From Candidatus Woesearchaeota archaeon (GTDB lineage: Archaea; Nanobdellota; Nanobdellia; SCGC-AAA011-G17; JAFCDX01): a stretch of 64,000 bases of DNA. The first letter of the stretch is position 1, and every line of letters starts with the position of its first letter. Below are positions 1-53,961 of this stretch, piece after piece. The notes beneath the pieces are model-generated. The model saw only the letters and a list, made by a program, of their open reading frames with translations. It ran no database searches and had not been told where the DNA came from. The position numbers were made by a program, and so were the translations under genes. The stretch spans positions 1,822-65,821 of the forward strand of contig JAFCDX010000004.1 of NCBI GenBank assembly GCA_017609465.1, in the 5' to 3' direction.

Positions 1-14
1 GGATCTCAATTCCT

Positions 15-272: not shown

Positions 273-307
273 GAAAATACTTAAAGGTAAAATAAAGGTA
301 TAAAATA

Positions 308-889: not shown

Positions 890-894
890 GCAAA

Positions 895-2298: not shown

Positions 2299-2327
2299 AA
2301 AAAGAAGATTATTTAAATAAAAGAACA

Positions 2328-3891: not shown

Positions 3892-3904
3892 AAATTATAT
3901 TTAT

Positions 3905-4210: not shown

Positions 4211-4282
4211 TTATTTTTTCACAGATACAACATCTGAAATTAGATTTTCTTTTTGCTTCAATCTTTATCTTTTCTTGGAATA

Positions 4283-14507: not shown

Positions 14508-16057
14508 CTTAAATAATTCTCCACTTCTTCTAATTTTTTATTTAATTCATTTATATTATCTGTCTTAAAATTTATGTCTTCATTACAATCAACTCTAAGT
14601 ATAAAATTAAAGGGTTTTTCTCCTAATTCAGGATATTTATTAATGCAGATCTTTCCCATAGACAATATTGTGCTTATGATTTCTTCTGAATCTTTTACAG
14701 ACTTGCTGCATCTGGACATGTCAAAACCTGCTCTTTTAAGGGCTTTGTCTTCAAATGCATAACATCTCCCGCCTCTAGATGTAGGAACAGCCCAGAACAA
14801 ATCTTTATCCATCAATTTTGTAATATATTTCACTTCTGGACAAAATCTTATGTCTGTATTTCTGTTGCTTCTTTTTACATCAAGGGTTAATTCAGAACAT
14901 TTTTTATCACTTTTTTTGTTTCTTTTATTATCCAAAGTTATTGCGCTTCTTGTTTTTTTACTCTTATTTTTTATCTCTTCTACTTTTTTATTAATCGCCT
15001 TCAATTCCTCAACAAATCTATAACCCATTGAATCTTCATCATCAACATCCCATTTTCTTTCAATTGTATTAAAAACAGTTTCCCATTTAACCATTTCTTT
15101 TTCATAAGCATCAAATGCTTCTTCCATGTTTTTATTGGAAAAAATATACTTTCTCATATTTTCATCTTTAATCATCTCATCAATATTTAATCCTGTAAAA
15201 CCTTCTGCAAAATTGCTTCCTATATCCTTTGCAATATTTGAAAATGTATTTTGTTCTGATAATTTTGACCATAATGCAGCGCATGCAAATCCTTCTTTCA
15301 TGCCTTCTGTGTAATTTTCCCAGTATTTTTCTCTTAACAATGATTCTTCAGAATCTCCTACTTCTTTCATGTTATCTGAAATTCTTTCTGCAGTTTCAAG
15401 CTTTCCAATTGCCCTTATCATCTTGTAATGAACAGTATCTTTGAATCTGCTTTCAAGAGAACTTGCAAGACTTAATACATCATCTATGTTTTGTAATTCT
15501 TCATCAGAACCATTAAAAACAAAATCGTATATTATGTCTTTTGCATATCCAATTACAGTCTCTTTTACCAATTCTTTTTGAATATTTACAGGAAGACTTG
15601 CATTTCCCATTGATATCATTGAAGATAATTTCCCTTCCAAATTAGAGCCTTTTTCAATAACAGACTGCATTAAATCTTGTGTTAAAACCTGTGCATACAA
15701 AACTTCTCTAAAACCACTATTTGCCTCTTCTATGTTTTCATAATTATCCTTCATGAATTTGTTCATTTCAAACTGGAAAGCCAATTCCTCATACAATTTT
15801 ATTTCATCTTCTTCATCACCAATTAATTCCCCGTCTTTATCAACAATCTGCCAGTTAGCAACTTTGTTTTCATAATCAACAGAAAATCTTGCTCTATAAT
15901 CTTTATTATAATGATGAATAGAATAAATTTGGCCTATTTTTTTCAAGTTATAATCTCTTACATTATCTGCGCTTATTGAAGCATAAGAAAAAGTTGTTAA
16001 TAATAATGGCAATGCAAATTTTTTAACTTTCTTTAACATTTTTAATGTGTTCCACAT
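14504..16057 (-). CDS. secreted protein, unknown function (surface operon gene 4)
   Basis: Signal peptide 'FALPLLLTTFSYASISA'. Cys-containing C-terminal domain. 16-nt overlap with the upstream gene. Confidence 0.6.
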   Translation of the reverse strand: MWNTLKMLKKVKKFALPLLLTTFSYASISADNVRDYNLKKIGQIYSIHHYNKDYRARFSVDYENKVANWQIVDKDGELIGDEEDEIKLYEELAFQFEMNKFMKDNYENIEEANSGFREVLYAQVLTQDLMQSVIEKGSNLEGKLSSMISMGNASLPVNIQKELVKETVIGYAKDIIYDFVFNGSDEELQNIDDVLSLASSLESRFKDTVHYKMIRAIGKLETAERISDNMKEVGDSEESLLREKYWENYTEGMKEGFACAALWSKLSEQNTFSNIAKDIGSNFAEGFTGLNIDEMIKDENMRKYIFSNKNMEEAFDAYEKEMVKWETVFNTIERKWDVDDEDSMGYRFVEELKAINKKVEEIKNKSKKTRSAITLDNKRNKKSDKKCSELTLDVKRSNRNTDIRFCPEVKYITKLMDKDLFWAVPTSRGGRCYAFEDKALKRAGFDMSRCSKSVKDSEEIISTILSMGKICINKYPELGEKPFNFILRVDCNEDINFKTDNINELNKKLEEVENYLR

Positions 16058-16950
16058 GCTATATTTTCTAATTCAATATGGTTACAATTAATAACTTTCC
16101 CCTCTACATTAAATACTGTTTTTTTATCATCGACTTCCAGAACAATGTTCCTTGATATATCCTCATTATTTTTTATTATATCTTCTAAAACAAAATCTGG
16201 CTTTTTTCCTTTTAATTCTCTTATTAATTCTGCTTCATAAGGGCTTTCCAAATAGAAATTATTTGGGAAGCTTACATCTGCTGTTGCTATTCCATCTGAA
16301 TTTGAATGTACTATTGCTGAAGTTTTTCCATTAATCAAGAAATAATTGCTTGAAACATTTACATCAGCTTCTACAGGCTTGTTTTTGTAAATTAAGTTTG
16401 TTTTATTATTACCATATTCTACTCTTTCATCAATAACTTCTGTTTTTGTTTCTCCTGTAGGTTCTTTTTCAAGAGTTTCTTTTTTTTCTGTAGCTACCAA
16501 TAAACCAAATGCTGTACATACAATTGCTCCTGCCCATGTAGCAGTATTATCTCCCTGTGTTAAATAGGATGTTAAAAGAATTCCACCCCAAAAACCAATA
16601 TTTCCCAAAGTTATAGCATCATCACTATCCATTTCATATTCAACGGTTTTAGTTACATTAACTTCTTCATAATCCTGTTTTGTTTTTACCATATATTTTC
16701 CAGAAATGTTTGAGTATTTATCCTCAAGAACCTTGAATTCCAAATCTGAACTTAATTTTATATCTTCAATGTGTTTATTTGTTTGATAATTCTTGTCTGA
16801 TTTTAATGGAACAGTTTCCTCATAAGTTTTTGTTGCTTCCCATTCTGTGCCCATATCATATGTTTTTGGAGCGCATGCAAAACTTGATAATCCCAAGGAT
16901 AAACTTAAAATTCCTGCTTCCATTGCCTTCTTTAATGATTTATATTTCAT
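16042..16950 (-). CDS. putative lipoprotein with internal TM hairpin (surface operon gene 3)
   Basis: 'LSLGLSSFACAPK' lipobox-like signal. Central hydrophobic pair 'IGFWGGILLTSYL' / 'WAGAIVCTAFGLLVA'. Confidence 0.6.
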   Translation of the reverse strand: MKYKSLKKAMEAGILSLSLGLSSFACAPKTYDMGTEWEATKTYEETVPLKSDKNYQTNKHIEDIKLSSDLEFKVLEDKYSNISGKYMVKTKQDYEEVNVTKTVEYEMDSDDAITLGNIGFWGGILLTSYLTQGDNTATWAGAIVCTAFGLLVATEKKETLEKEPTGETKTEVIDERVEYGNNKTNLIYKNKPVEADVNVSSNYFLINGKTSAIVHSNSDGIATADVSFPNNFYLESPYEAELIRELKGKKPDFVLEDIIKNNEDISRNIVLEVDDKKTVFNVEGKVINCNHIELENIACGTH

Positions 16951-16984: not shown

Positions 16985-19900
16985 TTATCTCTTTTTCTTT
17001 TTAGGTCTTGTTTCTTTTTCAACAAGGTCTTCCATTGAACTTATTTTTCTATTTCTGTAAGCTCTTGCACCAAATATTATTGCCAATATCAATATTAAAG
17101 CACCTAATCCAACACCTGAATACAAAAGTATTTTTTCGGTGATTTTTAATGGACCTAATTCAAAGATTATATTTCCTGTTACTTCAGGAGTTTCTTCTTC
17201 ATTATTATTTTCTGGTTGCTCAATTACTTGTGGTATATAATATGTACATGATTCATTTATTTCTGGTTTATTCTTATAACATTTATTTTCATCAATACAT
17301 GTTCTTGTTCTGAATCCATGTTCTGCTACACCTTCTTGTATTACAATACCTGTTGATTTACATGAACTCCATTCAGTACAGTTCCAGTCAGATGTGCATG
17401 ATGCTCCTGAACTACCACCAGATGAACCTCCTGAACTTCCTCCACCACCATTATTATTAGTTGAAGATGCCACTACTTCAATTGTTACATTATCACTATC
17501 AGTTAATCCAAAATTATCAGTTACTATTAATAATGCATTAAAGGTACCTACTCCATAATTATGTGTTGCAGTTATTCCTTTATCATCAATTGAATCATCA
17601 CCATCAAAGTCCCATTCATAAGTCAAACTATCATCTAAAACACCTCCAACATTTATATCTAGACTCCCTGAAGCATCAAAGTTTACTGTTAATGAATCCG
17701 TTCCACTGGTTTTGTCTACTGAAATTTGTGCTGTTGGTGCATAATTTATATAATCTGTTAATGAAGTACAGGTTGAAACTGTAAAAGTTCCTAATTCTGT
17801 TTTAATAGTACCAGAGCAAATTTCCCCATCAATTACATTAGCGTCCTGTAATTCAGCATTTAATAACTCTGAGTTTTCAATGTTCGAATTTGTTGCAGTT
17901 ACATTAAATAATATACTATTATCTATTGTAGATAAATCTACAGTTGAATTATCAATAGTTGAATCAACTATGTTCGAATTTGTTGTTGTTGAATACCAAA
18001 CATGTGAATCCATAATTGTTGACCCTGTAGCATCAGTCATATAGACATCAGATGGGTCTATATATAGATTTACACAACTAAATCCTGTGTATGTTGAGTT
18101 TATTATAGTACAATTATCTACATCCAAGGACCCTCCAGATATAAGATATAATGAACTTCCTTCGAAGTATGAAGCCCCAATGAAATTAGCTATTTCCCCC
18201 ATTATACTTGAATCTGTTATCTCTGAATTTGTCACTGTAGTATCTGGAATTTGTGATGTAAAGTTTAATGGGTAATAAGTTCCATAAATAAATGAATTAG
18301 TTACTGTTGGAGTTCCTATAGTTGTTTGTGTTAAACTTATATCTAATTTTGCAACATCATTCTGTGATGTAGCTTCTATTTGAACATCATAAAATCCTTC
18401 ATCTGCATCATTTATAGTTACAGTAAATGTAGTTGAAGCGCCAACACCCAATGAAATCGAGGAATCACTCAAAGTAATAGAATCAACTCCCCCTGTTAAA
18501 TCAGTGTATGTAATATCATAAATATCTGCTACATTACCTGTATTTGTAATTGTTATTGTATAAATCACGTCATTGCCAAGATCTACTGAACTTGATTGTG
18601 AAGCTGGTGAAAGGTCTATCCCATAAACAGATGGTCCTCCTGTAGCAGATGTTGTAAAACTGTATTCTGTTGATTCTGCTGAGTTATCGCTAGGATCTGT
18701 ACTATTTACAACATAATAATAAGTTGTTGAAGAAGATAATCCAATTAAAGATATTGAGTGGGATAATACATCACTTGTATCGTTTGAAATTAAAGTATAA
18801 GTTCCTGATGTTGTTCCATATTTAACTATCGAATCTGCAATTTCATCAGTATCCCAAGTTATTAAAGCTGAAACATCTGTTATTGAACTACTTTGTACAT
18901 TACTTATTGCTGGTGCAGTTATATCATCATCAATTCCATTATTATACTGTGTTAGTCTATTTGAAGATCCAGGTGTTGGTGCCAATTCCATCCATGTTCC
19001 TGATCCATCTGGTAACATTCCCTCTGATATATTTTCTATGCTTGAAGTATAGCTATAATCAAAAATAATATTACCATAATTATCTCTTAATGTTATACTG
19101 TCTCCTCCATTATTCAATGTAATTCCTGTTTCAGGTCTTCCTAAACTTAAGAAATTTCCAATATTCATAGTTTGACTTGGTATATTGTATAAATCAGTGC
19201 CATCTTCTATTGTAAATCCAGTTAAATCAGTTGAAGTTGTTCCTCTGTTATATAATTCTATAAATTCATCATTTGCTTCATCAATTCCATCAGCCAAAAA
19301 TTCATTTAATGCAATGTCACAATCTTGAACATTTATATTTACATTATCAACACTTTTTGCTCCATTAGTATCTACAGCAACAAAACTTATTGTATAGCTT
19401 TCTCCAGCTGTCAATACTGACATATTCAATTGTGTAGTATCTCCAAGACCGAATGAAGTTCCGTCACCAGAGGTTCCCTGTATTTTGTAGAACCATTCTC
19501 CTTCTAATACTCCATCTTCAGCATCTGTTGCAGTTCCATCAAATGATATATCTGTTATTGTGTTTGTACAATAATTGTTTCCATCCGCAGGTGAATTGAT
19601 TATTACATCTGGTGCTGTGTTTATTGTTATTGTTAAACTATCTGAATCTGAACTATCTTCATCATAAACTGTTAAAGTTACTGTGAAAGTATTTCCTCCA
19701 GTTCCTGTAAATGTGTGGGTTGGATCTGTTAATGAAGCTCCGCTTTCTACAGGACTTCCATCACCAAAGTCCCATTCGTAATTTGATATTAAATCGCTTG
19801 AACTTCCATTTATTGAATTACTTCCATCAAATTGAACAAGTTCTCCTGAGTTTACAATTTGATCAGAACCTGCATCAGCTATAGGATCAACATCATCTAT

Positions 19901-22900
19901 TATTACATCTGCTGAATTTCCAGTTCCAACATCACCATCAACATCAGTTACAGTACATACACCTATATATGTTCCATTATCCATGTAAGTTGTTGTGAAA
20001 TTTACTGATGTTGCACTATCAGAAGTTGCGACATTTGTAATTCCATTTCCAAAGTCAAAATTAAATGTTAATGGGAAATCTCCTCCAACAGTTTCACATG
20101 TGTAAGTTATTGAAGTTGGCTCTGTTCCTGAAGTCTGATTTGCAGTAACTGTAACTGATGGTTCGTTGTTTCCTACATTAATTAATTGTGAAACAGTATC
20201 TTGTGAACCATCAATATCTGTTACTGTTAAAGTAGCATTATATAAACCATCAGACAAGTAAGTATGTTCAACACTTATGTCACTTGCAGTATTTCCGTCT
20301 CCAAAGTTCCATGAATAACTTATTATATTGTCTAATGGAGTTGTTGAATCTGAACCATTGAACAATATCATTTCGTTTTCTTCTGGTGCAGTATTATTTA
20401 CATTCATTACAGCAGTTGGGCTTAAATCATTCACAACTATATCTTTTGATATTGTGTTTGTTGAACCGTCTGCATCTGTAACATTCAATGTAACTGTGAA
20501 TGTTTCATTAGCAGCATTTATTGCTGTTGTTTGATAAGTATGAGTTGGATTTTGTAAATCACTTGTTGCTCCATCGCCAAAGTCCCAAGAGTAATTCAAT
20601 GGCAAGTCATAAGCTACACTCAAATCACTAAATGAAACCGAATCCCCTTCATCAGGATTTACTGGTGTGAATGTGAAATTAGCCAATGGAATTGTATCTC
20701 CAACAGCAACATTCAATGTGTCTGTGTCAACTGTTCCATCTGCATCTGTAACATTCAATGTAACTATGTAGATTCCATTTTGTGTATAAATATGATCCAC
20801 TAAATCTCCTGTTGCAGTATTTCCATCACCAAAGTCCCACAAGTAACTTAATGGCTGGTCATAACCTGTTGAATTGCTTCCATCAAATTGAACCAAGACA
20901 TTTTCTTCTGTAATTTGATCATCGCCAGCAACTGCTGTAGGTGCTGTGTCAAATATTTCAATATCGTGAGTTGAAGTTGCTACATCACCATCAAAGTCTG
21001 TAACTGTTAAAGTAACTGTGTAATTGCCTTGCTGAGCATAAATATTATTTACTATTTGTCCGCTTGCAGTATTTCCATCACCAAAGTCCCAATCATAAGT
21101 TAATGGCTCATCATAACCTGTTCCAAATCCTGTGAATTGAACTGTATCATTTTCTGTTGCATTATAAAGGCCAACTATTGCTGCTGTAGGAACAGTATCA
21201 CCAACACTCACATCTTTTGTAACTGAATTTTGTGAACCATCTGAATCAGTAACTGTCAATGTAACTAGATAAATACCATTTTGTGTATAAACATGGGATG
21301 GATTTTCCAATGTGCTAGTATTACCATCATCAAAGTTCCATTCATATGAAACTATTGCATCATAACTTGTTGAATTATCAGTAAAATTAATGGTTTCATT
21401 TTCCTGTGGATTCAATGGATTGTAATAAAAGTCTGCAACTGGTATTGCATCATCTACAACAATTTGCACAGTTGCGTTTCCTACATCTCCATCTTCATCT
21501 ATAACAGTACATACAGGATTGTAAGTTCCATTATTATAATAAATATTATTTGCTGTCAATGAAGTTGTGCTTGTAGTTGTGTTTCCTGTCACAAAATTAA
21601 AATCAAATGTATAATCAGGATTTCCATTTACAACATCACATGTGAATGAAACATTCAATGGTTCTGTCCCTGATAAAGGATCTGCTGTCAATGTTACCTC
21701 AGGTGCATTATTTAATACATCTATTGTTATGTTAAATACATTTGAAACTGCTCCTATATCATCAATTACTCTTGCAGTAACTGTGTAGGTTCCATTAACT
21801 AATAATTCAGGAAGATTGAATGTTGAGCTTTCATTATCATACAATGTTTCAGCATCTGAACTATCTTCAACAACATTCCATATCCATGTTGTTATCAAAT
21901 CACCATCTGGGTCTGAAGCAATACCTTCACAGTAAATAGGTTCCAATTCCATCAGAGTTGTTGTATCATCATTGCCATTGTAACATACAATGCTGTCAAC
22001 TTGCGGAATTGTGTTTGTTATGTTTACCAAGATGTTATCAGTATTGAATTTTCCATATGCATCTGTAGCATAAACAGTTATTGGATGTTCCCCTAATCCC
22101 AATGCATCTGTAATGAAATTCACGTCTGTGCTTAATACTGATCCATCAAATGCATCATCCCATTTCCAAGTGTAATTATTTACATCTGAACTTCCACATA
22201 CATCATTAGGAGTTACTATAGCATCAAATTCAACATCATTACCTAAATGATCTTCGTAATATCCTGTGTTTGAAGGTAAAGTTATTGAAACATTTGAAGC
22301 AACATGCTCTATAATTTCAAAATCAACATTTGTTATATTAACCGCTCCATCATTATCAGCAATAGTCAATGTAACAGTATTATTTCCTGAATCAAAATGA
22401 TTTGCAGGTATGCTGAAATTTTCCTGTGTGCTTAACAAGTTTCCTTTCCATGTCCATACAACACTTATTATATTACCATCATTATCAAAAACTGTTGACG
22501 TAAAGTCTACTGTCTCACATGCATCAACAAATTGTTCATTCATTAATGGAGTATCTATTTCAGCATTAGGTGCCTGATTTGTTACATTTATATCAACACT
22601 TACAATATTTTCTGCTGCATCACCATAACAATCAACAGCTGTCAATGTTATTTCATGCATTCCAACACTTAAGTTAGCAGTAATGTCCTCAGTATCTCCT
22701 ATATTTACTCCATTGTCCTTCCATATCCAAGCATAATCATTTACATCACATCCACAATCTATCAAGTCATCTCCGTCCCCTGATAATATAATACCATCAA
22801 GATCAACCAATACACCATAATATGTTTGTGGTATTTCATAATAATCTGGGCTTACTTCAGTATATCCTGTAACATCCATATAAAGATTTAATTTTTCGTT

Positions 22901-25306
22901 TTCTGTTGTATTAATAACAATAGTGTCTGAACCCATTGTTCCTTGATCATCAACAACACTTGCAGTAAAGAAATTGTTTCCAATAGGTAATACTGAATCA
23001 TAAGTGAAATTTTGAGCATTGCTTAATTGTGAATCTGTTCCATTAGCAAAGAATGCCTGCCAGTTCCATGAAGTTGGTATTACATAACCGTATGGACTGT
23101 CTGGATCATATGCATCTGCAGTGAAATCTATAGGGCAGTATTCCATAACATTTGTGTTTACTGGATTTGTTATGTCAACAACAGGTGCCTGGTTTGCATT
23201 AACATGAATTGTTACTTCATCGTTTCCTGTAAGACCGTATGAATCTGTTCCTATCAATGTTATTGTATGGTCTGCATCACAAGTTAAATTATCTAATGAA
23301 AATCCTGTTCCTGTTCCTATTGCTCCATCTTCGCTTGATACCCATGAAAATGATACTGAATCTCCTTCAAACATCTCATCAATGTCAAAGTAAGTTCCAT
23401 CAAATGTTATTGGCTCTCCGCATACAAATGTATTTCCTTCATTTGGACTTGTAATATTTACTGTTGGAGCGTCTGCTACAGGTAATACCTTAATTAAGAA
23501 AGTATCCTGGTCTGTCAATGAGCCGTCTGAGACTTCCAATGTAACATTTTCCTCTCCATTCCAGTTTGCCAAAGCTGACAATGTTGCTATATTATCTGAA
23601 CTTATGTTAATTATTATGTTAACTGCTGATAAAACACTCCATATTAATTCATCATCTGTATTATCAACATCATCAGCATACATATTAAGATTCAATGTTG
23701 TAGAACTATCCTCATCAAATTCTAGATAGACTATAGGAGTTATTACAGGTGCATCGTTTACAGCATTGACTGTTACTGTTATGTTATATGAATCAGATAA
23801 TAATCCTATATCTGTTGCAATGAATGTGATATTTTCCTGCCCGTACCAGTTTTGTGGAGAATCAAAGGTAACTGTTCCGTTTGCATTTATGTTAACACTT
23901 ATGTAATTGTCTCCTGAATATGACCATGTTACTTCATCATCAGGATTATCAATATCTGTCAAGTAATCATATAAACTCCATGAAGTTGTTAATGTTGTAT
24001 CTTCATCGAAATTAACATCTGGTATGTTTTCAACTATTGGGGCATCATTTACAGGCAATACTGTTATGAATGAGTCACTTGAATCACATAAACCATCAGG
24101 GTCGCATGCTTCATAAGTTATTGTAGCATGACCGTAAAAGTCCTGTGTTAAAATATAAGATATTGTGTTATCTGGATTTATTACTGCTGTAACGTTTCCA
24201 TTATCAGAATATGCTGTCCATGTCAATTCATCATTAGTATTATCAACATCTGATACAAAATTATCCAAATTAATCAAAGGATCTGCTGTATCTGGCATGT
24301 CTTCATACATTTCAACATTTGGTATTGTATCTGAAACAACAGGTGCATCGTTTATTGGTGTTACTGTTACAACAAAATCATCTGTGTCTGTCAATGAGCC
24401 GTCTGAAACTTCAACAACAACAGTTGAATTTCCAAACATGTTTGTCTGTGTGACACATTCTATGTATCTGTTATCATATACTGAGCAATCAACAATATCC
24501 AATCCTGATTCATTTAATATCCTGTAATCAAGATTTTCAACAGAAATCTCTACATCATAAGCATAATTCCATAAATCAATAAGCATTTTATTTAATCCTG
24601 AATCTTCTTCAATTGTTACATCTGTTAAATTAGCTATTACAGGAGGGTTGTTTAATTGTATTACATTTACCCTGAATATGTCTTCTGCAAACAATCCCTG
24701 ATTGTCTGTTACTCTTATTGTAATATCAGAATAACCAAATTGGTTTTGCTGTGTTTCACAATCTACCCACGCTCCAGTATCGTTATTTCTTATTGAACAA
24801 TCAACAACACCTAGATTGCTTTCTCCTATGATCTCATAAGTCAATTCATTATCCGGACTTTCTGCATCATCAACATAATCCCATATGTTCATCAAGTCCT
24901 GATTTAATCCTGAATTCTGCATTATGTCAACATCTGGCAATAATGGATTTATCAAAGGAACTGTGTTTGGTATTGTTACTGTATAACTTCCAACTAATAT
25001 TGAACTTCCATCATAAGGCTTCCAAGCTTCACATGTAACATCCCCAACACTTGTAGATCTTGATAGCAATGGGTTTACATTTGTTATTTCACCGCCAATA
25101 ACTCCAGAACCTTTCCAGTGGAAATTATATCCTGTGTCATCCCCATTTACATAACATGTCAAATTATCAGTTGTCAAGGGATTTGTTGGTGTAATCAAAA
25201 CAGCTGATGCTGACAAACCAACAGTTCCCATTAATACTATTAACAATAAGCTCATTATTCCAAATAAGCTTAAGTTCATTTTTCCCAATTTGTTATTTAT
25301 TCTCAT
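16985..25306 (-). CDS. giant mosaic surface adhesin (2773 aa)
   Basis: Signal anchor, then five ~100-aa 'VNDAP' cadherin-like modules and many PKD/Ig-like domains (W[DN]FGDG). A lamin-tail domain ('NEFLADGIDEANDEFIELYN'), FN3, a CARDB-like domain and an Asn/Ser/Thr-rich beta-helix-like stretch follow. It ends in a GS linker, the 6-Cys module, TPEVTG, a TM helix and a KKKKR tail. Confidence 0.9.
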   Translation of the reverse strand: MRINNKLGKMNLSLFGIMSLLLIVLMGTVGLSASAVLITPTNPLTTDNLTCYVNGDDTGYNFHWKGSGVIGGEITNVNPLLSRSTSVGDVTCEAWKPYDGSSILVGSYTVTIPNTVPLINPLLPDVDIMQNSGLNQDLMNIWDYVDDAESPDNELTYEIIGESNLGVVDCSIRNNDTGAWVDCETQQNQFGYSDITIRVTDNQGLFAEDIFRVNVIQLNNPPVIANLTDVTIEEDSGLNKMLIDLWNYAYDVEISVENLDYRILNESGLDIVDCSVYDNRYIECVTQTNMFGNSTVVVEVSDGSLTDTDDFVVTVTPINDAPVVSDTIPNVEMYEDMPDTADPLINLDNFVSDVDNTNDELTWTAYSDNGNVTAVINPDNTISYILTQDFYGHATITYEACDPDGLCDSSDSFITVLPVNDAPIVENIPDVNFDEDTTLTTSWSLYDYLTDIDNPDDEVTWSYSGDNYISVNINANGTVTFDSPQNWYGQENITFIATDIGLLSDSYNITVTVNAVNDAPVITPIVYLEFDEDSSTTLNLNMYADDVDNTDDELIWSVLSAVNIIINISSDNIATLSALANWNGEENVTLEVSDGSLTDQDTFLIKVLPVADAPTVNITSPNEGNTFVCGEPITFDGTYFDIDEMFEGDSVSFSWVSSEDGAIGTGTGFSLDNLTCDADHTITLIGTDSYGLTGNDEVTIHVNANQAPVVDITNPVNTNVMEYCPIDFTADAYDPDSPYGYVIPTSWNWQAFFANGTDSQLSNAQNFTYDSVLPIGNNFFTASVVDDQGTMGSDTIVINTTENEKLNLYMDVTGYTEVSPDYYEIPQTYYGVLVDLDGIILSGDGDDLIDCGCDVNDYAWIWKDNGVNIGDTEDITANLSVGMHEITLTAVDCYGDAAENIVSVDINVTNQAPNAEIDTPLMNEQFVDACETVDFTSTVFDNDGNIISVVWTWKGNLLSTQENFSIPANHFDSGNNTVTLTIADNDGAVNITNVDFEIIEHVASNVSITLPSNTGYYEDHLGNDVEFDAIVTPNDVCGSSDVNNYTWKWDDAFDGSVLSTDVNFITDALGLGEHPITVYATDAYGKFNTDNILVNITNTIPQVDSIVCYNGNDDTTTLMELEPIYCEGIASDPDGDLITTWIWNVVEDSSDAETLYDNESSTFNLPELLVNGTYTVTARVIDDIGAVSNVFNITIDVLNNAPEVTLTADPLSGTEPLNVSFTCDVVNGNPDYTFDFNFVTGNTTTSTTSLTANNIYYNNGTYNPVCTVIDEDGDVGNATVQIVVDDAIPVADFYYNPLNPQENETINFTDNSTSYDAIVSYEWNFDDGNTSTLENPSHVYTQNGIYLVTLTVTDSDGSQNSVTKDVSVGDTVPTAAIVGLYNATENDTVQFTGFGTGYDEPLTYDWDFGDGNTASGQIVNNIYAQQGNYTVTLTVTDFDGDVATSTHDIEIFDTAPTAVAGDDQITEENVLVQFDGSNSTGYDQPLSYLWDFGDGNTATGDLVDHIYTQNGIYIVTLNVTDADGTVDTDTLNVAVGDTIPLANFTFTPVNPDEGDSVSFSDLSVAYDLPLNYSWDFGDGATSDLQNPTHTYQTTAINAANETFTVTLNVTDADGSTNTISKDIVVNDLSPTAVMNVNNTAPEENEMILFNGSDSTTPLDNIISYSWNFGDGNTASDISVEHTYLSDGLYNATLTVTDIDGSQDTVSQLINVGNNEPSVTVTANQTSGTEPTSITYTCETVGGDFPLTFNFDFGNGITNVATSDSATSVNFTTTYMDNGTYIGVCTVTDVDGDVGTGNSADVIIDDVDPIADAGSDQIVNSGELVQFDGSNSINGSSSDLISNYEWDFGDGSPVESGASLTDPTHTFTGTGGNTFTVTLTVYDEDSSDSDSLTITINTAPDVIINSPADGNNYCTNTITDISFDGTATDAEDGVLEGEWFYKIQGTSGDGTSFGLGDTTQLNMSVLTAGESYTISFVAVDTNGAKSVDNVNINVQDCDIALNEFLADGIDEANDEFIELYNRGTTSTDLTGFTIEDGTDLYNIPSQTMNIGNFLSLGRPETGITLNNGGDSITLRDNYGNIIFDYSYTSSIENISEGMLPDGSGTWMELAPTPGSSNRLTQYNNGIDDDITAPAISNVQSSSITDVSALITWDTDEIADSIVKYGTTSGTYTLISNDTSDVLSHSISLIGLSSSTTYYYVVNSTDPSDNSAESTEYSFTTSATGGPSVYGIDLSPASQSSSVDLGNDVIYTITITNTGNVADIYDITYTDLTGGVDSITLSDSSISLGVGASTTFTVTINDADEGFYDVQIEATSQNDVAKLDISLTQTTIGTPTVTNSFIYGTYYPLNFTSQIPDTTVTNSEITDSSIMGEIANFIGASYFEGSSLYLISGGSLDVDNCTIINSTYTGFSCVNLYIDPSDVYMTDATGSTIMDSHVWYSTTTNSNIVDSTIDNSTVDLSTIDNSILFNVTATNSNIENSELLNAELQDANVIDGEICSGTIKTELGTFTVSTCTSLTDYINYAPTAQISVDKTSGTDSLTVNFDASGSLDINVGGVLDDSLTYEWDFDGDDSIDDKGITATHNYGVGTFNALLIVTDNFGLTDSDNVTIEVVASSTNNNGGGGSSGGSSGGSSGASCTSDWNCTEWSSCKSTGIVIQEGVAEHGFRTRTCIDENKCYKNKPEINESCTYYIPQVIEQPENNNEEETPEVTGNIIFELGPLKITEKILLYSGVGLGALILILAIIFGARAYRNRKISSMEDLVEKETRPKKKKR
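17174..17191 (-). other. TPEVTG motif codons (copy 1 of 4)
   Basis: The + strand tcctgttacttcaggagt is the reverse complement of T-P-E-V-T-G. It is followed by a spacer, a TM helix and a basic tail. Confidence 0.6.
20130..21470 (-). repeat. tandem PKD-domain coding repeats (~250-nt period)
   Basis: The W(D/N)FGDG-coding string cca/gtc(a/g/t)(c/t)caaagt(c/t)cca recurs at 20295, 20571, 20823, 21075 and 21324. More diverged copies lie at ~19758 and ~17590. Confidence 0.7.
23465..24965 (-). repeat. five ~300-nt modules each ending in (V/I/N)(N/A)(D/P)(A/P)P(V/I/T)
   Basis: NNPPVI (~24640), INDAPVV (~24350), VNDAPIV (~24045), VNDAPVI (~23755), VADAPTV (~23475). Cadherin-like adhesin repeats. Confidence 0.5.
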
Positions 25307-42765: not shown

Positions 42766-43707
42766 TTACTTTCTTTTCCAGTAAAATACACCAATAAGCA
42801 TTGCAACAAAGAATCCTAATATCCAGTATTTTAATATTCCTGATGATTCTGTTTCTGTTGTTGCTGCACCTGTTACTTCTGGAGTTTCTTCTTCAGTATC
42901 TTCTACAACAAGTTCTGCAGAAGCTTCTTTAATGCCTTCACAATTTCCGTAAGTGTATGCTTCTTTGTACATGTCCAAGAAACATGCTCTTGGCTGAAAG
43001 TAAACAGTGTCAATTATGTTCGGTTTTCTGTAATCCCCTTTTAATATTGTTGAAGTTATCCTGTATTTGTCATCAGATATTTTTTCAAGAACTGCATCCT
43101 CTGCCAAAACATTGTCTGCCTCATCAACGAATTCATTGTTTCCGCTTGTGTGTATAAACAAGTCCTGTAATCCAAGAACCTCATTTTCATCTATGTTTGC
43201 ATTTGAAAATTCTATTATCAGTTTTTCATCTTCTGTGTTGTAACAAGTGTCTATTCTTGGCTTGAAATCATCGCATGAATATCTGAATTCAGGGCATTCT
43301 GCATCAAATTCATTTGGAAAAGACAATGCATCAAGATTGTTCAACTTAATCTCGTATGTTCCTCCATCAAACAAGGAATCTGAGAAAAAATAATATTCAG
43401 TATCTTCTCTTAATCTGTCTACTGTTTTGAAGAATCCCAAATTATCTCTTTTGTAAAATGTTCCTGTAAGGGACTTTTCTTCATTTTCATTATCAATATA
43501 AGTCAATTCAATATTATCTGTATTTAAGTTATCTGCTGAAGTGAATCTGAAAAACACTCTCCCCTGTGTAGAGCATCCAAAACCTTCATCATCCCTTATC
43601 ATTCCGCTCTTTTCATCATCGAACTTGATAATGTAATCTGTTCCAAGAAAAGCAAATGCTATGAATATTGTCATGAAAATTCCCAATATATATGCTAGCT
43701 TTTTCAT
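42766..43707 (-). CDS. secreted protein with TPEVTG-TM-basic C-terminal tail
   Basis: Signal anchor. Tail 'EEETPEVTGAATTETESSGILKYWILGFFVAMLIGVFYWKRK'. Lacks the 6-Cys module. Confidence 0.7.
   Translation of the reverse strand: MKKLAYILGIFMTIFIAFAFLGTDYIIKFDDEKSGMIRDDEGFGCSTQGRVFFRFTSADNLNTDNIELTYIDNENEEKSLTGTFYKRDNLGFFKTVDRLREDTEYYFFSDSLFDGGTYEIKLNNLDALSFPNEFDAECPEFRYSCDDFKPRIDTCYNTEDEKLIIEFSNANIDENEVLGLQDLFIHTSGNNEFVDEADNVLAEDAVLEKISDDKYRITSTILKGDYRKPNIIDTVYFQPRACFLDMYKEAYTYGNCEGIKEASAELVVEDTEEETPEVTGAATTETESSGILKYWILGFFVAMLIGVFYWKRK
42868..42885 (-). other. TPEVTG motif codons (copy 2 of 4)
   Basis: The + strand reads acctgttacttctggagt. Confidence 0.6.
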
Positions 43708-51506: not shown

Positions 51507-52703
51507 TTATTTTCTTTTTCTGTAATACAGATATCCGCCTGATCCTATTGCCAATAATCCTAAAGCTATCAATAACCATACAACACTTGATCCTGATGTG
51601 CCTACTGCTGCTCCTGTTACTTCAGGAGTTTCATCAACAACTTCAGGTTCTTGTTCAGTTTCTGTAATTTCACAATCTCTGTTTTCTCTTTTTTCTGATT
51701 CTATTTCAGGACATTCTTTTACATCATTACAAAATCTTGTTTGTTCTCCATCAACACATGATGTCCATTCACCACATACCCATTCAGGTATACAAAATGG
51801 ACCAGAACTTCCACCAGATGAACTTCCACCAGATGAACTTGTTGGTGCTGGACATGCTAAATCAGAACCGTCACAATCTTGATCAATTCCATCACCACAA
51901 ATTTCTGTGTTACCAGGGAATCTGTTTCCATCATCATCTGCACAATCTATTTCTGTATTTACACAAAAACTTGTATCTCCTGCACTATAACCATCACCAT
52001 CATTATCTATACATGGTGGGTTTACAACTTCTATTGTAACACTTCCAATAACATCAGTACATGTTTTTTGTATATTACCTTCCACTAACATATTTATTAC
52101 TAATGTTCCTGCTGTTAATGGTTTTATTACAATGCTTGAAGTTCCATCATTTGATACTGCGCTTTTAGTTGTTGCATAAACTTCTGAAGCCTCTATAATC
52201 TCATCATTAGGTGCTCCTAAAGTTGTATTTTTACCAACTAACAATGCATCTGCTGTTGAAGAAGGATCTATTGAAAATAAAACTCCTGTTGCTCCTCTTC
52301 TTGCATCAAAACCATTATTAACACCATATAATGAATTAACATAAAATTCCAGTGTTTGTTCTGTGTTTATTTCTATTGGACCTGCTATTTCGCTTGTTAT
52401 TATTTCTTCTGGACACCCTTGCAATTCATTTGTCAATGTTCCAAAGAATAACTGGTCTAAAAGACTTGAATCCGCGCTTGTGACAGAACCATCTCCATTA
52501 AGGTCATATATGTCTGCACATTCATAATCTCCTTGTATACTTGTATCTCCTAATACTATACATTCATCAACACCACTTAAATCAGTGGATAATATAGAAC
52601 AATCTCCATTAGAATCCCCTAATCTACATACTCCTAATTCCTTCGCTCCTAAAACTAAAGGAAGCATAAGTAAAATTCCTGCTAATATTAATATTTTTTT
52701 CAT
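51507..52703 (-). CDS. surface protein: dockerin-like repeats, MopE-like Cys/Asp motif, GS linker, 6-Cys module, TPEVTG tail
   Basis: 'GDSNGDCSILSTDL' and 'DLNGDGSVTSADSSLLDQLFFG'. 'DCADDDGNRFPGNTEICGDGIDQDCDG'. 'CIPEWVCGEWTSC'. 'DETPEVTGAAVG..YLYYRKRK'. Confidence 0.75.
   Translation of the reverse strand: MKKILILAGILLMLPLVLGAKELGVCRLGDSNGDCSILSTDLSGVDECIVLGDTSIQGDYECADIYDLNGDGSVTSADSSLLDQLFFGTLTNELQGCPEEIITSEIAGPIEINTEQTLEFYVNSLYGVNNGFDARRGATGVLFSIDPSSTADALLVGKNTTLGAPNDEIIEASEVYATTKSAVSNDGTSSIVIKPLTAGTLVINMLVEGNIQKTCTDVIGSVTIEVVNPPCIDNDGDGYSAGDTSFCVNTEIDCADDDGNRFPGNTEICGDGIDQDCDGSDLACPAPTSSSGGSSSGGSSGPFCIPEWVCGEWTSCVDGEQTRFCNDVKECPEIESEKRENRDCEITETEQEPEVVDETPEVTGAAVGTSGSSVVWLLIALGLLAIGSGGYLYYRKRK
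51612..51629 (-). other. TPEVTG motif codons (copy 3 of 4)
   Basis: The + strand reads tcctgttacttcaggagt, identical to copy 1. Confidence 0.6.
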
Positions 52704-52779: not shown

Positions 52780-53961
52780 TTACTTCTTTTTATAGTATAA
52801 ATACCCGCCAATACCAACAACTAACAATCCCAAGGCAGTTAGTAACCATATAATATTTGTATTATTTTCTGTTCCAACAACAGCGCCTGTTACTTCTGGT
52901 ACTTCTGGTGTTTCTCTACTGGTTTCTTCAACGATTTCAGATTCCTCAACAACTTTTGGATAATATGTGCATGTCCTTGCTGTTTCTGGCTTGTTTTTAT
53001 TACAAGAATTCAATAAAATACATTCTCTTGTTCTTAATCCATCTTCACTACAAGGAACTTCATTCCAATCTTGGCATTCCCATTCTGGTTTACAAGATGA
53101 ACCTCCACCTGAACTTGTTGATGGACTTGTTGGTGATGGTGCAGGAGTTTTTCCTAAAACACCATCACAATTCTCATCAACATCATTATCATTTATTTCT
53201 GTTGCATTTGGATTTATTGAAGCATTATTATCATTACAATCAACATCAGAAGTAAAATTATCATTATCATAATCAATGTAATAATTCATTACTCCAATAC
53301 ATATAATATTTTCCATTTCAACATTCCAGGATTCATTATTCAAGTAATAACATGTTCCATTAAAATTGCTATTTATTAGTTCATCAAAATTAAACAAGTT
53401 TATGTCTGAACCATAACCAACAGTCATATATCCGTTATAAAACCCAAATATATTTCCTTGTATGTTTGTCTCATTTATGTATCCATCTCCAATCAAGGCT
53501 TCAAATTCCTTGTATCCTAAAATATAAAGATTATCTCCATCTTTTACCTCCCCACTAAGAAAATATCCTTCTGCATTAAAACCTTGTTCATTGGACACAA
53601 AACATCCAAAAGTATTATTTTCTGCAACACAAAACCCATTATAAGGATTTTTTATTGATATGTCTGGAGACATTTCAGTTTCATTATTCAAGATTATTTT
53701 ACCATAAAAAATACCATCTATTGTGTCTCCTATGAAAACACCATCATAAACAACAGTCCCTAATTGAGTATCATCCCAACCATTATACAAATTACAAGTT
53801 ATTGGCCAAGAATCAAAAACAGTATAATTTAATTCATTAACTGTAAAAGAAGCTTCAGAATTTGTCTTAAATTCATTATAATTTATTTCAAATTCATAAA
53901 CATTTGCTAATACCAACGGTAAAACTAGTAATATTATTAATGTTATCAGTATTTTTTTCAT
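52780..53961 (-). CDS. surface protein paralog: unrelated ectodomain, MopE-like motif, GS linker, 6-Cys module, TPEVPEVTG tail
   Basis: Signal 'MKKILITLIILLVLPLVLA' is close to the neighbour's. 'DCNDNNASINPNATEINDNDVDENCDG'. 'CKPEWECQDWNEVPC'. 'RETPEVPEVTGAVVG...YLYYKKK'. Confidence 0.75.
   Translation of the reverse strand: MKKILITLIILLVLPLVLANVYEFEINYNEFKTNSEASFTVNELNYTVFDSWPITCNLYNGWDDTQLGTVVYDGVFIGDTIDGIFYGKIILNNETEMSPDISIKNPYNGFCVAENNTFGCFVSNEQGFNAEGYFLSGEVKDGDNLYILGYKEFEALIGDGYINETNIQGNIFGFYNGYMTVGYGSDINLFNFDELINSNFNGTCYYLNNESWNVEMENIICIGVMNYYIDYDNDNFTSDVDCNDNNASINPNATEINDNDVDENCDGVLGKTPAPSPTSPSTSSGGGSSCKPEWECQDWNEVPCSEDGLRTRECILLNSCNKNKPETARTCTYYPKVVEESEIVEETSRETPEVPEVTGAVVGTENNTNIIWLLTALGLLVVGIGGYLYYKKK
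52885..52911 (-). other. TPEVPEVTG motif codons (copy 4 of 4, PEV duplicated)
   Basis: The + strand reads gcctgttacttctggtacttctggtgt. Confidence 0.6.

What the first reader, a model, noticed from the sequence alone, without database searches (positions are those of the whole stretch)
16985..17405. Shared tripartite C-terminal tail (acidic stalk with TPEVTG, TM helix, basic end) on four secreted proteins: an unnamed sorting-signal candidate
Seen directly: four otherwise unrelated secreted proteins end the same way.
- 2773-aa adhesin: ..NNNEEETPEVTGNIIF..TM..KKKKR (codons 17174-17191).
- 313-aa protein: ..DTEEETPEVTGAATTETESSGILKYWILGFFVAMLIGVFYWKRK (42868-42885).
- 398-aa protein: ..VVDETPEVTGAAVGTSGSSVVWLLIALGLLAIGSGGYLYYRKRK (51612-51629).
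- 393-aa protein: ..SRETPEVPEVTGAVVGTENNTNIIWLLTALGLLVVGIGGYLYYKKK (52885-52911).

The DNA is also conserved (cctgttacttc[a/t]gg on the + strand). Short motif, hydrophobic helix, then basic tail is the layout of processed sorting signals such as LPXTG/sortase and PGF- or PEF-CTERM/archaeosortase. TPEVTG has P-x-x-T-G spacing, not L-P-x-T-G, and is not a CTERM motif I know. The window contains no sortase-, archaeosortase- or rhombosortase-like gene. It could mark a cleavage or anchoring site handled by an enzyme encoded elsewhere.
Basis: partly seen in the sequence, partly recalled or inferred. Interest (0 to 1): 0.8.

Follow-up and report, generated by a model that had tools for sequence, protein, structure and literature searches.

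The report
Shared C-terminal anchor motif, archaeal surface proteins
Four secreted proteins of a tiny uncultivated archaeon end in the same short motif, membrane helix and basic tip, which looks like a new, still unnamed variant of the tags microbes use to sort and anchor surface proteins, although no processing enzyme could be found.

Summary
TPEVTG occurs four times in the window and nowhere else in six frames (0 expected). Each copy lies 33-34 residues before the stop (62 in the adhesin) of a signal-peptide protein, after an acidic linker and before a spacer, a TM helix and a Lys/Arg end.

The window is archaeal, and relatives are annotated Candidatus Woesearchaeota. TPEVTG is the local form of a wider motif, [I/V/L]-T-G-x-[V/A]-[V/I](-G), found 8-14 residues before the C-terminal helix of many related surface proteins (11 of 45 anchored ORFs in independent loci, against 0.8% expected). 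Orthologues keep P-x-x-T-G-A (IPPITGA, PPATTGA) while the flanks diverge.

All eight of Haft's published attributes of tripartite sorting signals are met or largely met. No Pfam or NCBIfam model covers the motif. LPXTG models align only to the helix and basic end, at borderline scores.

No sortase, archaeosortase or rhomboid gene is in the window. About 0.39 Mb of related loci held no sortase and no recurrent neighbouring protease. Cleavage and the enzyme are therefore inferred, not shown. The main rival is a permanent membrane anchor with a conserved stalk motif.

Verdict: a plausible new variant of a known kind; interest about 0.55.

The parts
16985..25306 (-). 2773-aa secreted adhesin with PKD, cadherin-like, Big_9 and LTD domains, carrying the tail
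   Evidence: ORF; Pfam PKD_4 E=2.5e-120 and further domains; N-terminal hydrophobic signal seen
17225..17398 (-). Six-Cys domain (CxxxWxCxxWxxC..G..TR.C.D.N.C..KP..C) directly upstream of the adhesin tail
   Evidence: BLAST to p393 E=7e-10 and to p398 E=1e-4 over adhesin residues 2637-2699; profile finds 1739 representative proteins
17174..17191 (-). TPEVTG motif of the adhesin
16988..17173 (-). Adhesin tail after the motif: 14-aa spacer NIIFELGPLKITEK (17132-17173), TM helix ILLYSGVGLGALILILAIIFGA (17066-17131), and a 26-aa cytoplasmic end RAYRNRK..KKKKR (16988-17065)
   Evidence: orthologous tails in P0045 and P0131 keep ITGxxxxxGPLK(V/L)T and long cytoplasmic ends
42766..43707 (-). 313-aa secreted protein with no known domain. 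It shares only the tail with the other three proteins
   Evidence: orthologue P0159 at 57% identity
42868..42885 (-). TPEVTG motif of p313
42769..42867 (-). p313 tail after the motif: spacer AATTETESSGILKY, TM WILGFFVAMLIGVFYW, and KRK
51507..52703 (-). 398-aa secreted protein with dockerin-like, MopE-type metal-binding and Cys-rich domains, carrying the tail
   Evidence: Pfam Dockerin_1 E=2.1e-6 and Cu-binding_MopE E=3.9e-6
51666..51794 (-). Six-Cys domain of p398
51612..51629 (-). TPEVTG motif of p398
51510..51611 (-). p398 tail after the motif: spacer AAVGTSGSS, TM VVWLLIALGLLAIGSGGYLYY, and RKRK
   Evidence: the LPXTG_anchor HMM aligns only here (residues 371-398 on profile positions 6-33)
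52780..53961 (-). 393-aa secreted protein with MopE-type motif and Cys-rich domain, carrying the tail. It is a tandem paralogue of p398
52960..53094 (-). Six-Cys domain of p393. It is confidently folded in the AF2 model
   Evidence: block-mean pLDDT 79-90 for model residues 1-50
52885..52911 (-). TPEVPEVTG motif of p393, with a 9-nt tandem duplication of PEV
   Evidence: variant P0001 has ETPEVTG
52783..52884 (-). p393 tail after the motif: spacer AVVGTENNTN, TM IIWLLTALGLLVVGIGGYLYY, and KKK
   Evidence: the AF2 model has a helix at residues 79-104 and a disordered linker (pLDDT 44-54) containing the motif

Best explanation
TPEVTG is the signature motif of a C-terminal sorting and anchoring domain used by a Woesearchaeota-like (DPANN) archaeon for its surface proteins.

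Shown or read directly from the sequence:
- The proteins carry Sec-type signal peptides, so they are exported.
- The C-terminal helix followed by Lys/Arg acts as a stop-transfer signal. This leaves the ectodomain outside and the motif on a disordered acidic linker 8-14 residues above the membrane.
- The motif is under its own purifying selection and sits on different ectodomains.

Inferred:
- An extracytoplasmic peptidase or transpeptidase encoded elsewhere in the genome recognises P-x-[VI]-T-G-A.
- It most likely cuts at or next to the invariant T-G, as sortase cuts LPXT|G.
- It then either transfers the ectodomain to another anchor (a lipid or a surface-layer component) or trims it.

The enzyme class is unknown. 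The adhesin-type subfamily, which has long cytoplasmic tails, may keep its helix.
For: - Non-random and position-locked: 4 sites against 0 expected, none elsewhere in six frames, and the stop lies 33, 34, 34 and 62 residues after the Gly.
- Haft's attributes are met: near the C-terminus, several copies per genome, at least three invariant motif residues, a TM helix, a basic cluster, and N-terminal signal peptides. p313 shares nothing else with the other three. Homologues exist with plain helices or no helix at all.
- Selection acts on the motif itself. The flanks diverge while the 20-nt core differs only at synonymous positions. Orthologues keep P-x-x-T-G-A: p313 TPEVTGA against P0159 IPPITGA at 57% overall identity, and p398/p393 against the syntenic P0154 PPATTGAVVG.
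- A broader family exists. In 30 tails T and G are invariant, position -1 is I/V/L in 29, and positions +3 and +4 are mainly V/A and V/I. The generic motif lies in the pre-helix window of 25 of 96 anchored proteins (P=2e-32). In loci chosen without reference to the motif it is 11 of 45, against 0.84% background (P=1e-13).
- Within this genome the variable positions are uniform (TPEV in all four), while other genomes use DV, DI, EL or GI. That pattern fits co-evolution with one recognition partner.
- The motif lies in a predicted disordered linker, so it is accessible.
- Other C-terminally anchored proteins in the window lack it (8508-9281; 40803-42515), so it is not needed for anchoring as such.
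Against: - No candidate enzyme was found. The window has no sortase-like ORF and only one ORF with four or more predicted helices, which matches no archaeosortase, rhomboid or other NCBIfam model.
- About 0.39 Mb from 50 related loci gave no sortase and no recurrent neighbouring protease. This was about half a genome equivalent searched with weak methods, so the negative is soft.
- Residues after T-G (A-V-V/I-G) are conserved too, which is unusual for a segment that would be discarded.
- The adhesin and its orthologues (P0045, P0131), and several other members, have cytoplasmic tails of 14-39 residues. That is atypical for cleaved sorting signals.
- The tail mostly co-occurs with one Cys-rich domain, so modularity is weaker than for LPXTG or PEP-CTERM.
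- There is no proteomic evidence of cleavage.
- DPANN archaea are not known to have a wall polymer that could accept a sortase product (my own knowledge).
Confidence: 0.45

Rival explanations
1. Permanent type-I membrane anchor. The helix is never removed. The conserved [IVL]-T-G-A-V-V-G stretch is a structural or interaction element of the juxtamembrane stalk, for example a strand pairing or GxxxG-like contact between stalks or with a surface-layer or host component. It is not a cleavage site.
For: - Conservation continues downstream of T-G (A at +2, V/A at +3, V/I at +4, G at +5 in 12 of 30).
- The helix itself has family-conserved features: an interfacial Trp, LGL, and GGYLYY.
- The adhesin subfamily has 26-39-residue cytoplasmic tails with conserved GPLK(I/V)T after the motif.
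- No processing enzyme was found anywhere examined.
- The tail travels as a cassette with the Cys-rich domain.
Against: - AF2 places the motif in a low-confidence, unstructured linker rather than in a fold.
- Uniformity within the genome and drift between genomes at the variable positions is what enzyme-signal pairs show.
- All formal attributes of cleaved sorting signals are met.
- T and G are strictly invariant, whereas a purely structural strand should tolerate more variation.
Confidence: 0.3
2. Shedding or release site. The proteins are first helix-anchored. A membrane-proximal or intramembrane protease, for example a rhomboid, then cuts at G|x-[VA]-[VI] (small P1, hydrophobic P2') to release the ectodomain, without re-anchoring it.
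For: - The invariant small Gly followed by hydrophobic residues at +3 and +4 matches part of the published rhomboid preference for a small P1 and a hydrophobic P2' (Strisovsky 2009, from my own knowledge).
- Rhomboid-family genes exist in these lineages and lie less than 1 kb from Cys-domain surface protein genes in L078 (1910-2506) and L082 (2493-3128).
- The linker is accessible.
Against: - The two rhomboid-adjacent proteins lack the T-G motif.
- Two rhomboid genes in 0.39 Mb is not clearly more than chance.
- The motif sits 8-14 residues outside the helix, further than typical rhomboid or rhombosortase sites, where GlyGly abuts the helix.
- The hydrophobic residue is at P3, not P4.
- No rhomboid gene is in the window.
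Confidence: 0.15
3. Classical LPXTG/sortase substrates. The tails are diverged LPXTG signals cut by a horizontally acquired class A-F sortase.
For: - TIGR01167 LPXTG_anchor scores 21.2 bits on the isolated p398 tail and 16.2 bits on the full protein, against a cut-off of 15.9.
- There are weak hits to the NCBIfam variants LPxTATN, LAVTG, GVDTG and QVPTGV.
- T-G is invariant as in LPXT|G, and the length after the Gly (33-34 residues) is sortase-like.
Against: - The HMM alignments start at profile position 6 or 11, so they cover only the helix and basic end, not the motif.
- p393 is below the cut-off, and p313 and the adhesin get no hit.
- Pfam PF00746 is below its gathering score for all four.
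- The spacing is P-x-x-T-G, and the wider family often has no Pro at all.
- No SrtA-like or TLxTC ORF exists in the window or in 0.39 Mb of related loci.
- The organism is an archaeon with no known murein or pseudomurein (own knowledge).
Confidence: 0.07
4. No specific function. The identity reflects recent duplication or gene conversion of a C-terminal cassette among paralogues.
For: - p398 and p393 are adjacent paralogues.
- Three of the four proteins share the upstream Cys-rich domain.
- The DNA core is nearly identical in all four.
Against: - Only about 20 nt are conserved, inside flanks at roughly background similarity, and the core carries synonymous differences.
- p313 has no other similarity to the other three.
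- Orthologues in other assemblies keep P-x-x-T-G-A after about 40-60% divergence.
- T-G is invariant in 30 distant tails.
Confidence: 0.03

Closest known systems
LPXTG cell-wall sorting signal / sortase (TIGR01167, PF00746) and the NCBIfam variants LAVTG (NF058582), GVDTG (NF058571), LPxTATN (NF058670) and QVPTGV (TIGR03065)
   Same: - Tripartite layout.
- Invariant Thr-Gly.
- The motif lies a few to about 12 residues outside the helix.
- About 30-35 residues from the Gly to the C-terminus.
- Signal-peptide proteins, with several per genome.
- The helix and basic end score weakly against these HMMs.
   Different: - The motif is P-x-[VI]-T-G-A, or [IVL]-T-G-x-V-V in the wider family, with no Leu-Pro.
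- The HMMs do not align to the motif.
- Residues after the Gly are conserved.
- The basic end is Lys-rich.
- The host is an archaeon.
- No sortase was found.
PGF-CTERM / archaeosortase A, with the related PEF-CTERM and VPXXXP-CTERM signals
   Same: - An archaeal C-terminal tripartite signal on surface glycoprotein-like proteins.
- It is preceded by a low-complexity acidic or Thr-rich linker.
- It is a precedent for replacing the helix with a lipid anchor (PMC6098224).
   Different: - There is no PGF or PEF motif and no HMM hit even at E<=10.
- Here the motif is separated from the helix by 8-14 polar residues instead of abutting it.
- The window has no polytopic archaeosortase-like gene.
Orphan lineage-specific C-terminal signals catalogued in NCBIfam, such as CGP-CTERM (Thermococcales), Heimdall-CTERM and PFE-CTERM
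   Same: - A clade-restricted short C-terminal homology domain.
- It was recognised from sequence before any enzyme was known.
- Only marginal, helix-only hits to Heimdall-CTERM and PFE-CTERM (E 0.2-0.3).
   Different: - A different signature, with no Cys.
- A different clade (Woesearchaeota-like DPANN).
- A longer spacer.
GlyGly-CTERM / rhombosortase
   Same: An invariant small Gly-containing motif before a C-terminal helix and basic cluster. Rhomboid genes are present in related contigs.
   Different: In GlyGly-CTERM the motif sits at the helix boundary, whereas here it is 8-14 residues away. There is no HMM hit, and the rhomboid-adjacent proteins lack T-G.

Membership tests
Tripartite C-terminal sorting-signal domain (attributes of Haft 2023, bioRxiv 10.1101/2023.06.07.544157, section 5) | [quoted passage not shown] | tested here: met
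   The stop lies 33, 34 and 34 residues after the Gly. It is 62 in the adhesin, which is a partial exception.
Tripartite C-terminal sorting-signal domain (attributes of Haft 2023, bioRxiv 10.1101/2023.06.07.544157, section 5) | 2. [quoted passage not shown] | tested here: met
   Four in 64 kb. The genome-wide count could not be obtained.
Tripartite C-terminal sorting-signal domain (attributes of Haft 2023, bioRxiv 10.1101/2023.06.07.544157, section 5) | 3. [quoted passage not shown] | tested here: met
   T-P-E-V-T-G is invariant within the genome. T and G are invariant and position -1 is I/V/L in 29 of 30 distant tails.
Tripartite C-terminal sorting-signal domain (attributes of Haft 2023, bioRxiv 10.1101/2023.06.07.544157, section 5) | 4. 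[quoted passage not shown] | tested here: met
   Uncharged stretches of 16-22 residues. AF2 predicts a helix at model residues 79-104.
Tripartite C-terminal sorting-signal domain (attributes of Haft 2023, bioRxiv 10.1101/2023.06.07.544157, section 5) | 5. Cluster of 2-5 basic residues at the end | tested here: met
   KRK, RKRK and KKK, Lys-rich in a 30% GC genome. The adhesin instead has a 26-residue mixed tail ending in KKKKR.
Tripartite C-terminal sorting-signal domain (attributes of Haft 2023, bioRxiv 10.1101/2023.06.07.544157, section 5) | 6. N-terminal signal peptide on most members | tested here: met
   All four start with a basic n-region followed by a hydrophobic core (MKKILILAGILLMLPLVLGA..). 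This was judged by eye; no predictor was run.
Tripartite C-terminal sorting-signal domain (attributes of Haft 2023, bioRxiv 10.1101/2023.06.07.544157, section 5) | 7. Pairs of members with no similarity outside the signal | tested here: met
   p313 against each of the other three gives no BLAST hit better than E=0.8 once the tails are removed. The other three share only the ~45-aa Cys domain, and p398/p393 also share a MopE region.
Tripartite C-terminal sorting-signal domain (attributes of Haft 2023, bioRxiv 10.1101/2023.06.07.544157, section 5) | 8. Homologues elsewhere that lack the signal or carry another one | tested here: met
   Many Cys-domain proteins end with no helix, or with a plain helix and no T-G, for example P0014, P0016, P0055 and the L082 594-aa protein.
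Tripartite C-terminal sorting-signal domain (attributes of Haft 2023, bioRxiv 10.1101/2023.06.07.544157, section 5) | Cognate processing enzyme co-occurring across genomes; cleavage demonstrated | not testable with these tools
   Whole proteomes of the source and related genomes could not be retrieved. No candidate was found in the window or in about 0.39 Mb of related loci. No proteomics data were found.
LPXTG / sortase substrates | L-P-x-T-G pentapeptide | tested here: not met
   The motif is T-P-E-V-T-G (P-x-x-T-G). The wider family is [IVL]-T-G, with Pro at -3 in only 9 of 30 tails.
LPXTG / sortase substrates | Score above the curated HMM cut-off with the motif aligned | tested here: inconclusive
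   TIGR01167: p398 scores 16.2 against a cut-off of 15.9, but only profile positions 6-33 align. p393 scores 14.2, below the cut-off. p313 and the adhesin get no hit. PF00746 scores 14.0-19.5, below its gathering score of 20.
LPXTG / sortase substrates | Sortase (PF04203) encoded in the genome | not testable with these tools
   None in the window or the related loci by phmmer with SrtA or by a TLxTC pattern.
PGF-CTERM, PEF-CTERM and other archaeosortase signals | Signature motif abutting the helix, an HMM match, and an archaeosortase gene | tested here: not met
   No NCBIfam hit to any archaeosortase-type CTERM model at E<=10. The spacer is 8-14 residues. The only polytopic ORF in the window (35603-36337) matches no NCBIfam model and only weakly matches DUF7521.
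GlyGly-CTERM / rhombosortase | Gly-Gly at the helix boundary, an HMM match, and a rhombosortase gene | tested here: not met
   No HMM hit and no rhomboid gene in the window. Rhomboid genes in L078 and L082 sit next to proteins that lack the motif.

The most novel reading that the evidence does not exclude
The [IVL]-T-G-x-V-V tail marks a sorting system that is widespread in Woesearchaeota and related DPANN archaea. Its processing enzyme belongs to none of the known classes (sortase, exo/archaeosortase, rhombosortase, CPBP-type myxosortase, PorU). The enzyme cuts at T|G and re-anchors adhesins, possibly to host-derived lipid or to a surface layer, and so controls how these episymbionts display their host-binding proteins.
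Probability: 0.15. Interest if true: 0.8.

Novelty: new variant of a known kind. Interest (0 to 1): 0.55.

Why it matters
DPANN archaea make up a large share of archaeal diversity and appear to live attached to other cells, yet almost nothing is known about how they build their surface. A clade-specific C-terminal signal shared by a 2773-aa PKD/cadherin adhesin and several smaller surface proteins would offer three things:
- A simple sequence handle (an HMM) for listing the displayed surface proteome of these organisms.
- A starting point for finding the processing enzyme by phylogenetic profiling.
- A new entry in the catalogue of prokaryotic sorting signals, from a lineage that lacks a conventional wall.

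If the motif turns out to be only a stalk element of a permanent anchor, the result is still a useful annotation feature but biologically modest.

Tried and rejected
- **Curated models.** NCBIfam and Pfam scans of the isolated tails and full proteins at E<=10 found no model covering the motif, only helix and basic-end hits to LPXTG-type models.
- **Literature.** 'PEVTG', sortase or archaeosortase plus DPANN or Woesearchaeota, and the accession strings for the source all gave nothing relevant.
- **GTDB genome scan.** GAAACWCCWGAAGTWACWGG matched 31 loci, none archaeal DPANN; they look like chance matches or a conserved Veillonella gene. The source genome is apparently not a species representative.
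- **Metagenome scan.** E[TV]PEVTG[AN][AVI] matched 96 stretches, none a relative. The four-sequence alignment worked only through Cys-domain patterns.
- **Word-indexed protein search.** The 106-aa tail and the tail-only profile returned nothing usable.
- **Sortase hunt.** The three leads (L065, L083, L074) are not sortases.
- **Neighbourhood clustering.** Only housekeeping families recur: MCM, TBP, DNA ligase and L15e.
- **Polytopic ORF 35603-36337 as a possible archaeosortase.** Rejected: weak DUF7521 hit and no NCBIfam hit.
- **C39-like peptidase 2328-2945.** It has no signal peptide or helix and lies in a defence-gene region, so it is unlikely to act on an extracellular motif.
- **Walking off the window ends.** Exact protein look-ups found no record.
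- **Context look-ups of other tail proteins.** No sortase, exosortase or rhomboid Pfam hit nearby.
- **GPI-like signal.** Considered from memory and set aside: the basic C-terminal end and V at +2 fit poorly, and no test was possible.
Full report
**Observation**

The 14-nt string CCTGTTACTTCWGG occurs four times on the + strand (17175, 42869, 51613, 52886). None was expected in 100 dinucleotide-preserving shuffles.

All four sites are the reverse complement of P-E-V-T-G codons in minus-strand ORFs:
- 16985-25306, 2773 aa
- 42766-43707, 313 aa
- 51507-52703, 398 aa
- 52780-53961, 393 aa

(ORFs; translations.)

A six-frame scan with loosened versions of the motif finds only these four sites. The stop codon follows the Gly by 62, 33, 34 and 34 residues.

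Each tail has the same order of parts:
- an acidic linker;
- TPEVTG (TPEVPEVTG in p393);
- a 9-14-residue spacer;
- an uncharged stretch of 16-22 residues;
- a Lys/Arg end.

The adhesin differs at the last step. After its helix it has 26 more residues of mixed charge that end in KKKKR.

At the DNA level only about 20 nt are conserved, within otherwise diverged sequence. The differences inside that core are synonymous, so the constraint is on the peptide.

**Organism**

The window is 25-34% GC. It encodes archaeal RNase P component 3 and an archaeal-type UMP kinase (TIGR02076, 184.7 bits, above its cut-off).

The same genes lie on contig JAFCGU010000005.1 of NCBI assembly GCA_017607915.1 and on a 69,270-bp contig held by NCBI and JGI.

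Two related tail-bearing proteins carry NCBI names from 'Candidatus Woesearchaeota archaeon': MBS3155204.1 and MBD3313510.1. Loci recovered through the shared Cys-rich domain carry MCM, TBP, ATP-dependent DNA ligase and ribosomal protein L15e.

The setting is therefore a DPANN, Woesearchaeota-like archaeon.

**The four proteins**

- The adhesin is built of PKD, cadherin-like, Big_9 and lamin-tail domains.
- p398 has a dockerin-like domain and a MopE-type metal-binding motif. p393 has the MopE-type motif.
- p313 matches nothing.

With the tails removed, p313 has no similarity to the others. The adhesin, p398 and p393 share a ~45-residue six-Cys domain immediately upstream of the linker. p398 and p393 are tandem paralogues, 28% identical over 143 residues. 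'Otherwise unrelated' is therefore only partly correct.

All four begin with a basic and then hydrophobic N-terminus typical of Sec signal peptides (by inspection).

**Wider family**

A profile of the four C-terminal regions found 1739 proteins at E<=1e-3 among 1.84 billion representatives, mostly through the Cys-rich domain.

Where that domain is followed by a C-terminal helix, a related motif often recurs just before the helix. Examples are DVTGAVVGT, DITGAVVGT, ELTGAVIGT, GITGAVIGG, QITGLVVGE, DVTGNAVSD and ELTGQVVKT. The Gly lies 34-40 residues from the C-terminus in most of them.

In 30 non-identical tails:
- T and G are invariant;
- position -1 is I/V/L in 29;
- position +2 is A in 13;
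- position +3 is V or A in 20;
- position +4 is V or I in 24;
- position +5 is G in 12;
- Pro occupies -3 in 9.

The generic pattern [VIL][TS]G.[AVILF][AVILF] lies in the 27-residue pre-helix window of 25 of 96 C-terminally anchored proteins, against a background of 0.67% (P=2e-32). That pool was partly selected with a profile containing the motif. In ORFs of the 50 metagenome loci, which were retrieved through Cys-domain patterns only, the figures are 11 of 45 against 0.84% (P=1e-13).

**Orthologues**

- p313 has one homologue, P0159 (57% identity, GCA_024449895.1). Its tail reads ..EESIPPITGATVGAKEKSKISIKYWLLGF..YWKRK, with 34 residues after the Gly.
- A JGI contig (L086) is syntenic with the window through a kinase and PP2C gene cluster. 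Its counterpart of p398/p393, P0154, ends ..IQPPATTGAVVGGQERSYYWLLGLG..KRKK.
- A contig syntenic with the region from the adhesin to RNase P p30 (L089, GCA_975850245.1) has ..GSEITGAYVFELGPLKVT.. at the equivalent place.

Close relatives thus keep P-x-x-T-G-A or E-I-T-G, while the linker and spacer change freely.

Exact TPEVTG tails were not found in GTDB species representatives or in JGI metagenomes. Within this genome the positions that vary between genomes are identical in all four proteins.

**Structure**

AlphaFold2 on the last 105 residues of p393, with eight aligned sequences, gives three regions:
- a confident small Cys-rich domain (block-mean pLDDT 79-90);
- a low-confidence linker (44-54) that contains the motif;
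- a C-terminal helix (residues 79-104).

The motif is predicted to be exposed and flexible.

**Comparison with known signals**

No NCBIfam or Pfam model aligns to the motif.
- LPXTG_anchor (TIGR01167) scores 21.2 bits on the isolated p398 tail and 16.2 on the whole protein (cut-off 15.9), but it aligns only profile positions 6-33, which are the helix and basic end.
- p393 scores 14.2. p313 and the adhesin get no hit.
- PF00746 stays below its gathering score.
- The newer NCBIfam variants (LPxTATN, LAVTG, GVDTG, QVPTGV) and Heimdall-CTERM and PFE-CTERM give only sub-threshold, helix-only hits.
- No archaeosortase-type CTERM model (PGF, PEF and the like) and no GlyGly-CTERM model hits at E<=10.

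Haft lists eight attributes of tripartite C-terminal sorting signals (bioRxiv 10.1101/2023.06.07.544157, section 5). All eight are met here, with the adhesin's long tail as a partial exception.

The 8-14-residue gap between motif and helix resembles LPXTG signals. In PGF-, PEP- and GlyGly-CTERM signals the motif abuts the helix.

**Search for an enzyme**

The window contains no SrtA-like ORF and no TLxTC signature. Its only ORF with four or more predicted helices is 35603-36337, which has a weak DUF7521 hit and no NCBIfam hit.

Pfam annotations on the NCBI contig show nothing sortase-like.

In about 0.39 Mb from the 50 related loci I found no sortase and no recurrent neighbouring peptidase. 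Context look-ups of six other tail proteins gave none either.

Two rhomboid genes lie within 1 kb of Cys-domain proteins (L078, L082), but those proteins lack the T-G motif.

This sample amounts to roughly half a genome equivalent, searched with weak tools, so the negative result is soft. The rest of the source genome could not be reached.

**Interpretation**

Shown: a position-locked, selectively maintained motif on an exposed linker in front of a C-terminal stop-transfer anchor. It is shared by secreted proteins with different ectodomains and belongs to a wider Woesearchaeota-type tail family.

Inferred: it is recognised by a dedicated extracytoplasmic enzyme. The invariant T-G and the spacing make a sortase-like cut the leading guess.

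Three observations argue the other way and keep a non-cleaved stalk element as a serious rival:
- residues after the Gly are conserved;
- the adhesin subfamily has long cytoplasmic tails;
- no enzyme was found.

My estimates are:
- about 0.45 that this is a processed sorting signal;
- 0.3 that it is a permanent anchor with a structural motif;
- 0.15 that it is a shedding site;
- under 0.1 that these are classical sortase substrates;
- about 0.03 that it has no specific function.

**Novelty and score**

Neither the papers I could search nor the curated model libraries describe this motif. The concept of a tripartite C-terminal signal is well established and new clade-specific examples are added regularly, so I rate this a new variant of a known kind. 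Interest is 0.55. It would rise to about 0.8 if a new enzyme class were tied to it.

Noticed in passing
17225-17398, 51666-51794, 52960-53094 and within 40803-42515 (around residues 350-395): A ~45-residue six-Cys domain (CxxxWxCxxWxxC..G.QTR.C.D.N.C..KP...C) sits just before the tails. It has 1739 representative homologues, with up to 14 tandem copies per protein, yet no Pfam or NCBIfam match. AF2 folds it confidently. Only weak fold hits (E>=1) go to proteins that contain thrombospondin-type repeats (C6/C8, Unc5A, midkine).
   Followed up: partly
40803-42515 (+): This 570-aa protein has a signal peptide, the Cys-rich domain and a TM helix, followed by a ~100-residue cytoplasmic winged-helix region with weak MarR/TrmB-like hits. 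It looks like a membrane-tethered DNA-binding protein. P0066 and P0080 end in a similar way.
   Followed up: no
25303-28059 (-): This 918-aa protein's stop overlaps the adhesin start codon, which suggests translational coupling. It has one N-proximal helix and a beta-rich C-terminal ~300 residues with an alternating pattern. No family matches, and single-sequence AF2 failed (pLDDT 30). A syntenic contig (L089) has a large gene in the same position.
   Followed up: partly
13692-14507, 16042-16950, 40060-40770: Three ORFs have N-termini resembling lipoboxes (..GAMGC, ..SSFAC, ..GAGYC). They are possible archaeal lipoproteins, and two of them lie directly downstream of the adhesin gene.
   Followed up: no
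46228-51375 (-); L086 107-4931: A gene cluster next to p398/p393 encodes a Ser/Thr kinase, an unknown protein, a protein with a region that looks like an FHA domain (by eye only), and a large membrane protein. The related contig L086 has Pkinase, two unknown genes and a PF00481 PP2C gene in the same order, so the 508-aa window ORF (49849-51375) is presumably PP2C-like. It matched no Pfam family.
   Followed up: partly
52885-52911: p393 carries a 9-nt tandem duplication (PEVPEV). It is absent from a near-identical database variant (P0001, ETPEVTG), which indicates strain-level indel variation right at the motif.
   Followed up: yes
L078 1910-2506; L082 2493-3128: Rhomboid-family protease genes (WR..H....H and GASGAI.G signatures) lie less than 1 kb from Cys-domain surface protein genes in two unrelated metagenome contigs. 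The adjacent proteins lack the T-G motif.
   Followed up: partly
1-8057; 44326-45545; 61525-62945: By eye, the window carries probable defence or mobile content. There is a large fused restriction-modification-like enzyme (4938-8057) and a C39-like peptidase (2328-2945, PF13529). There is an AbiEii-type toxin gene (44901-45545, PF08843) with an adjacent partner gene. There is also a DNA methyltransferase with a neighbouring ORF (61525-62945).
   Followed up: no
8508-9281 (-): This 257-aa secreted Cys-rich protein has a C-terminal helix and a long Lys/Arg end but no T-G motif. The genome therefore also uses plain C-terminal anchors.
   Followed up: partly
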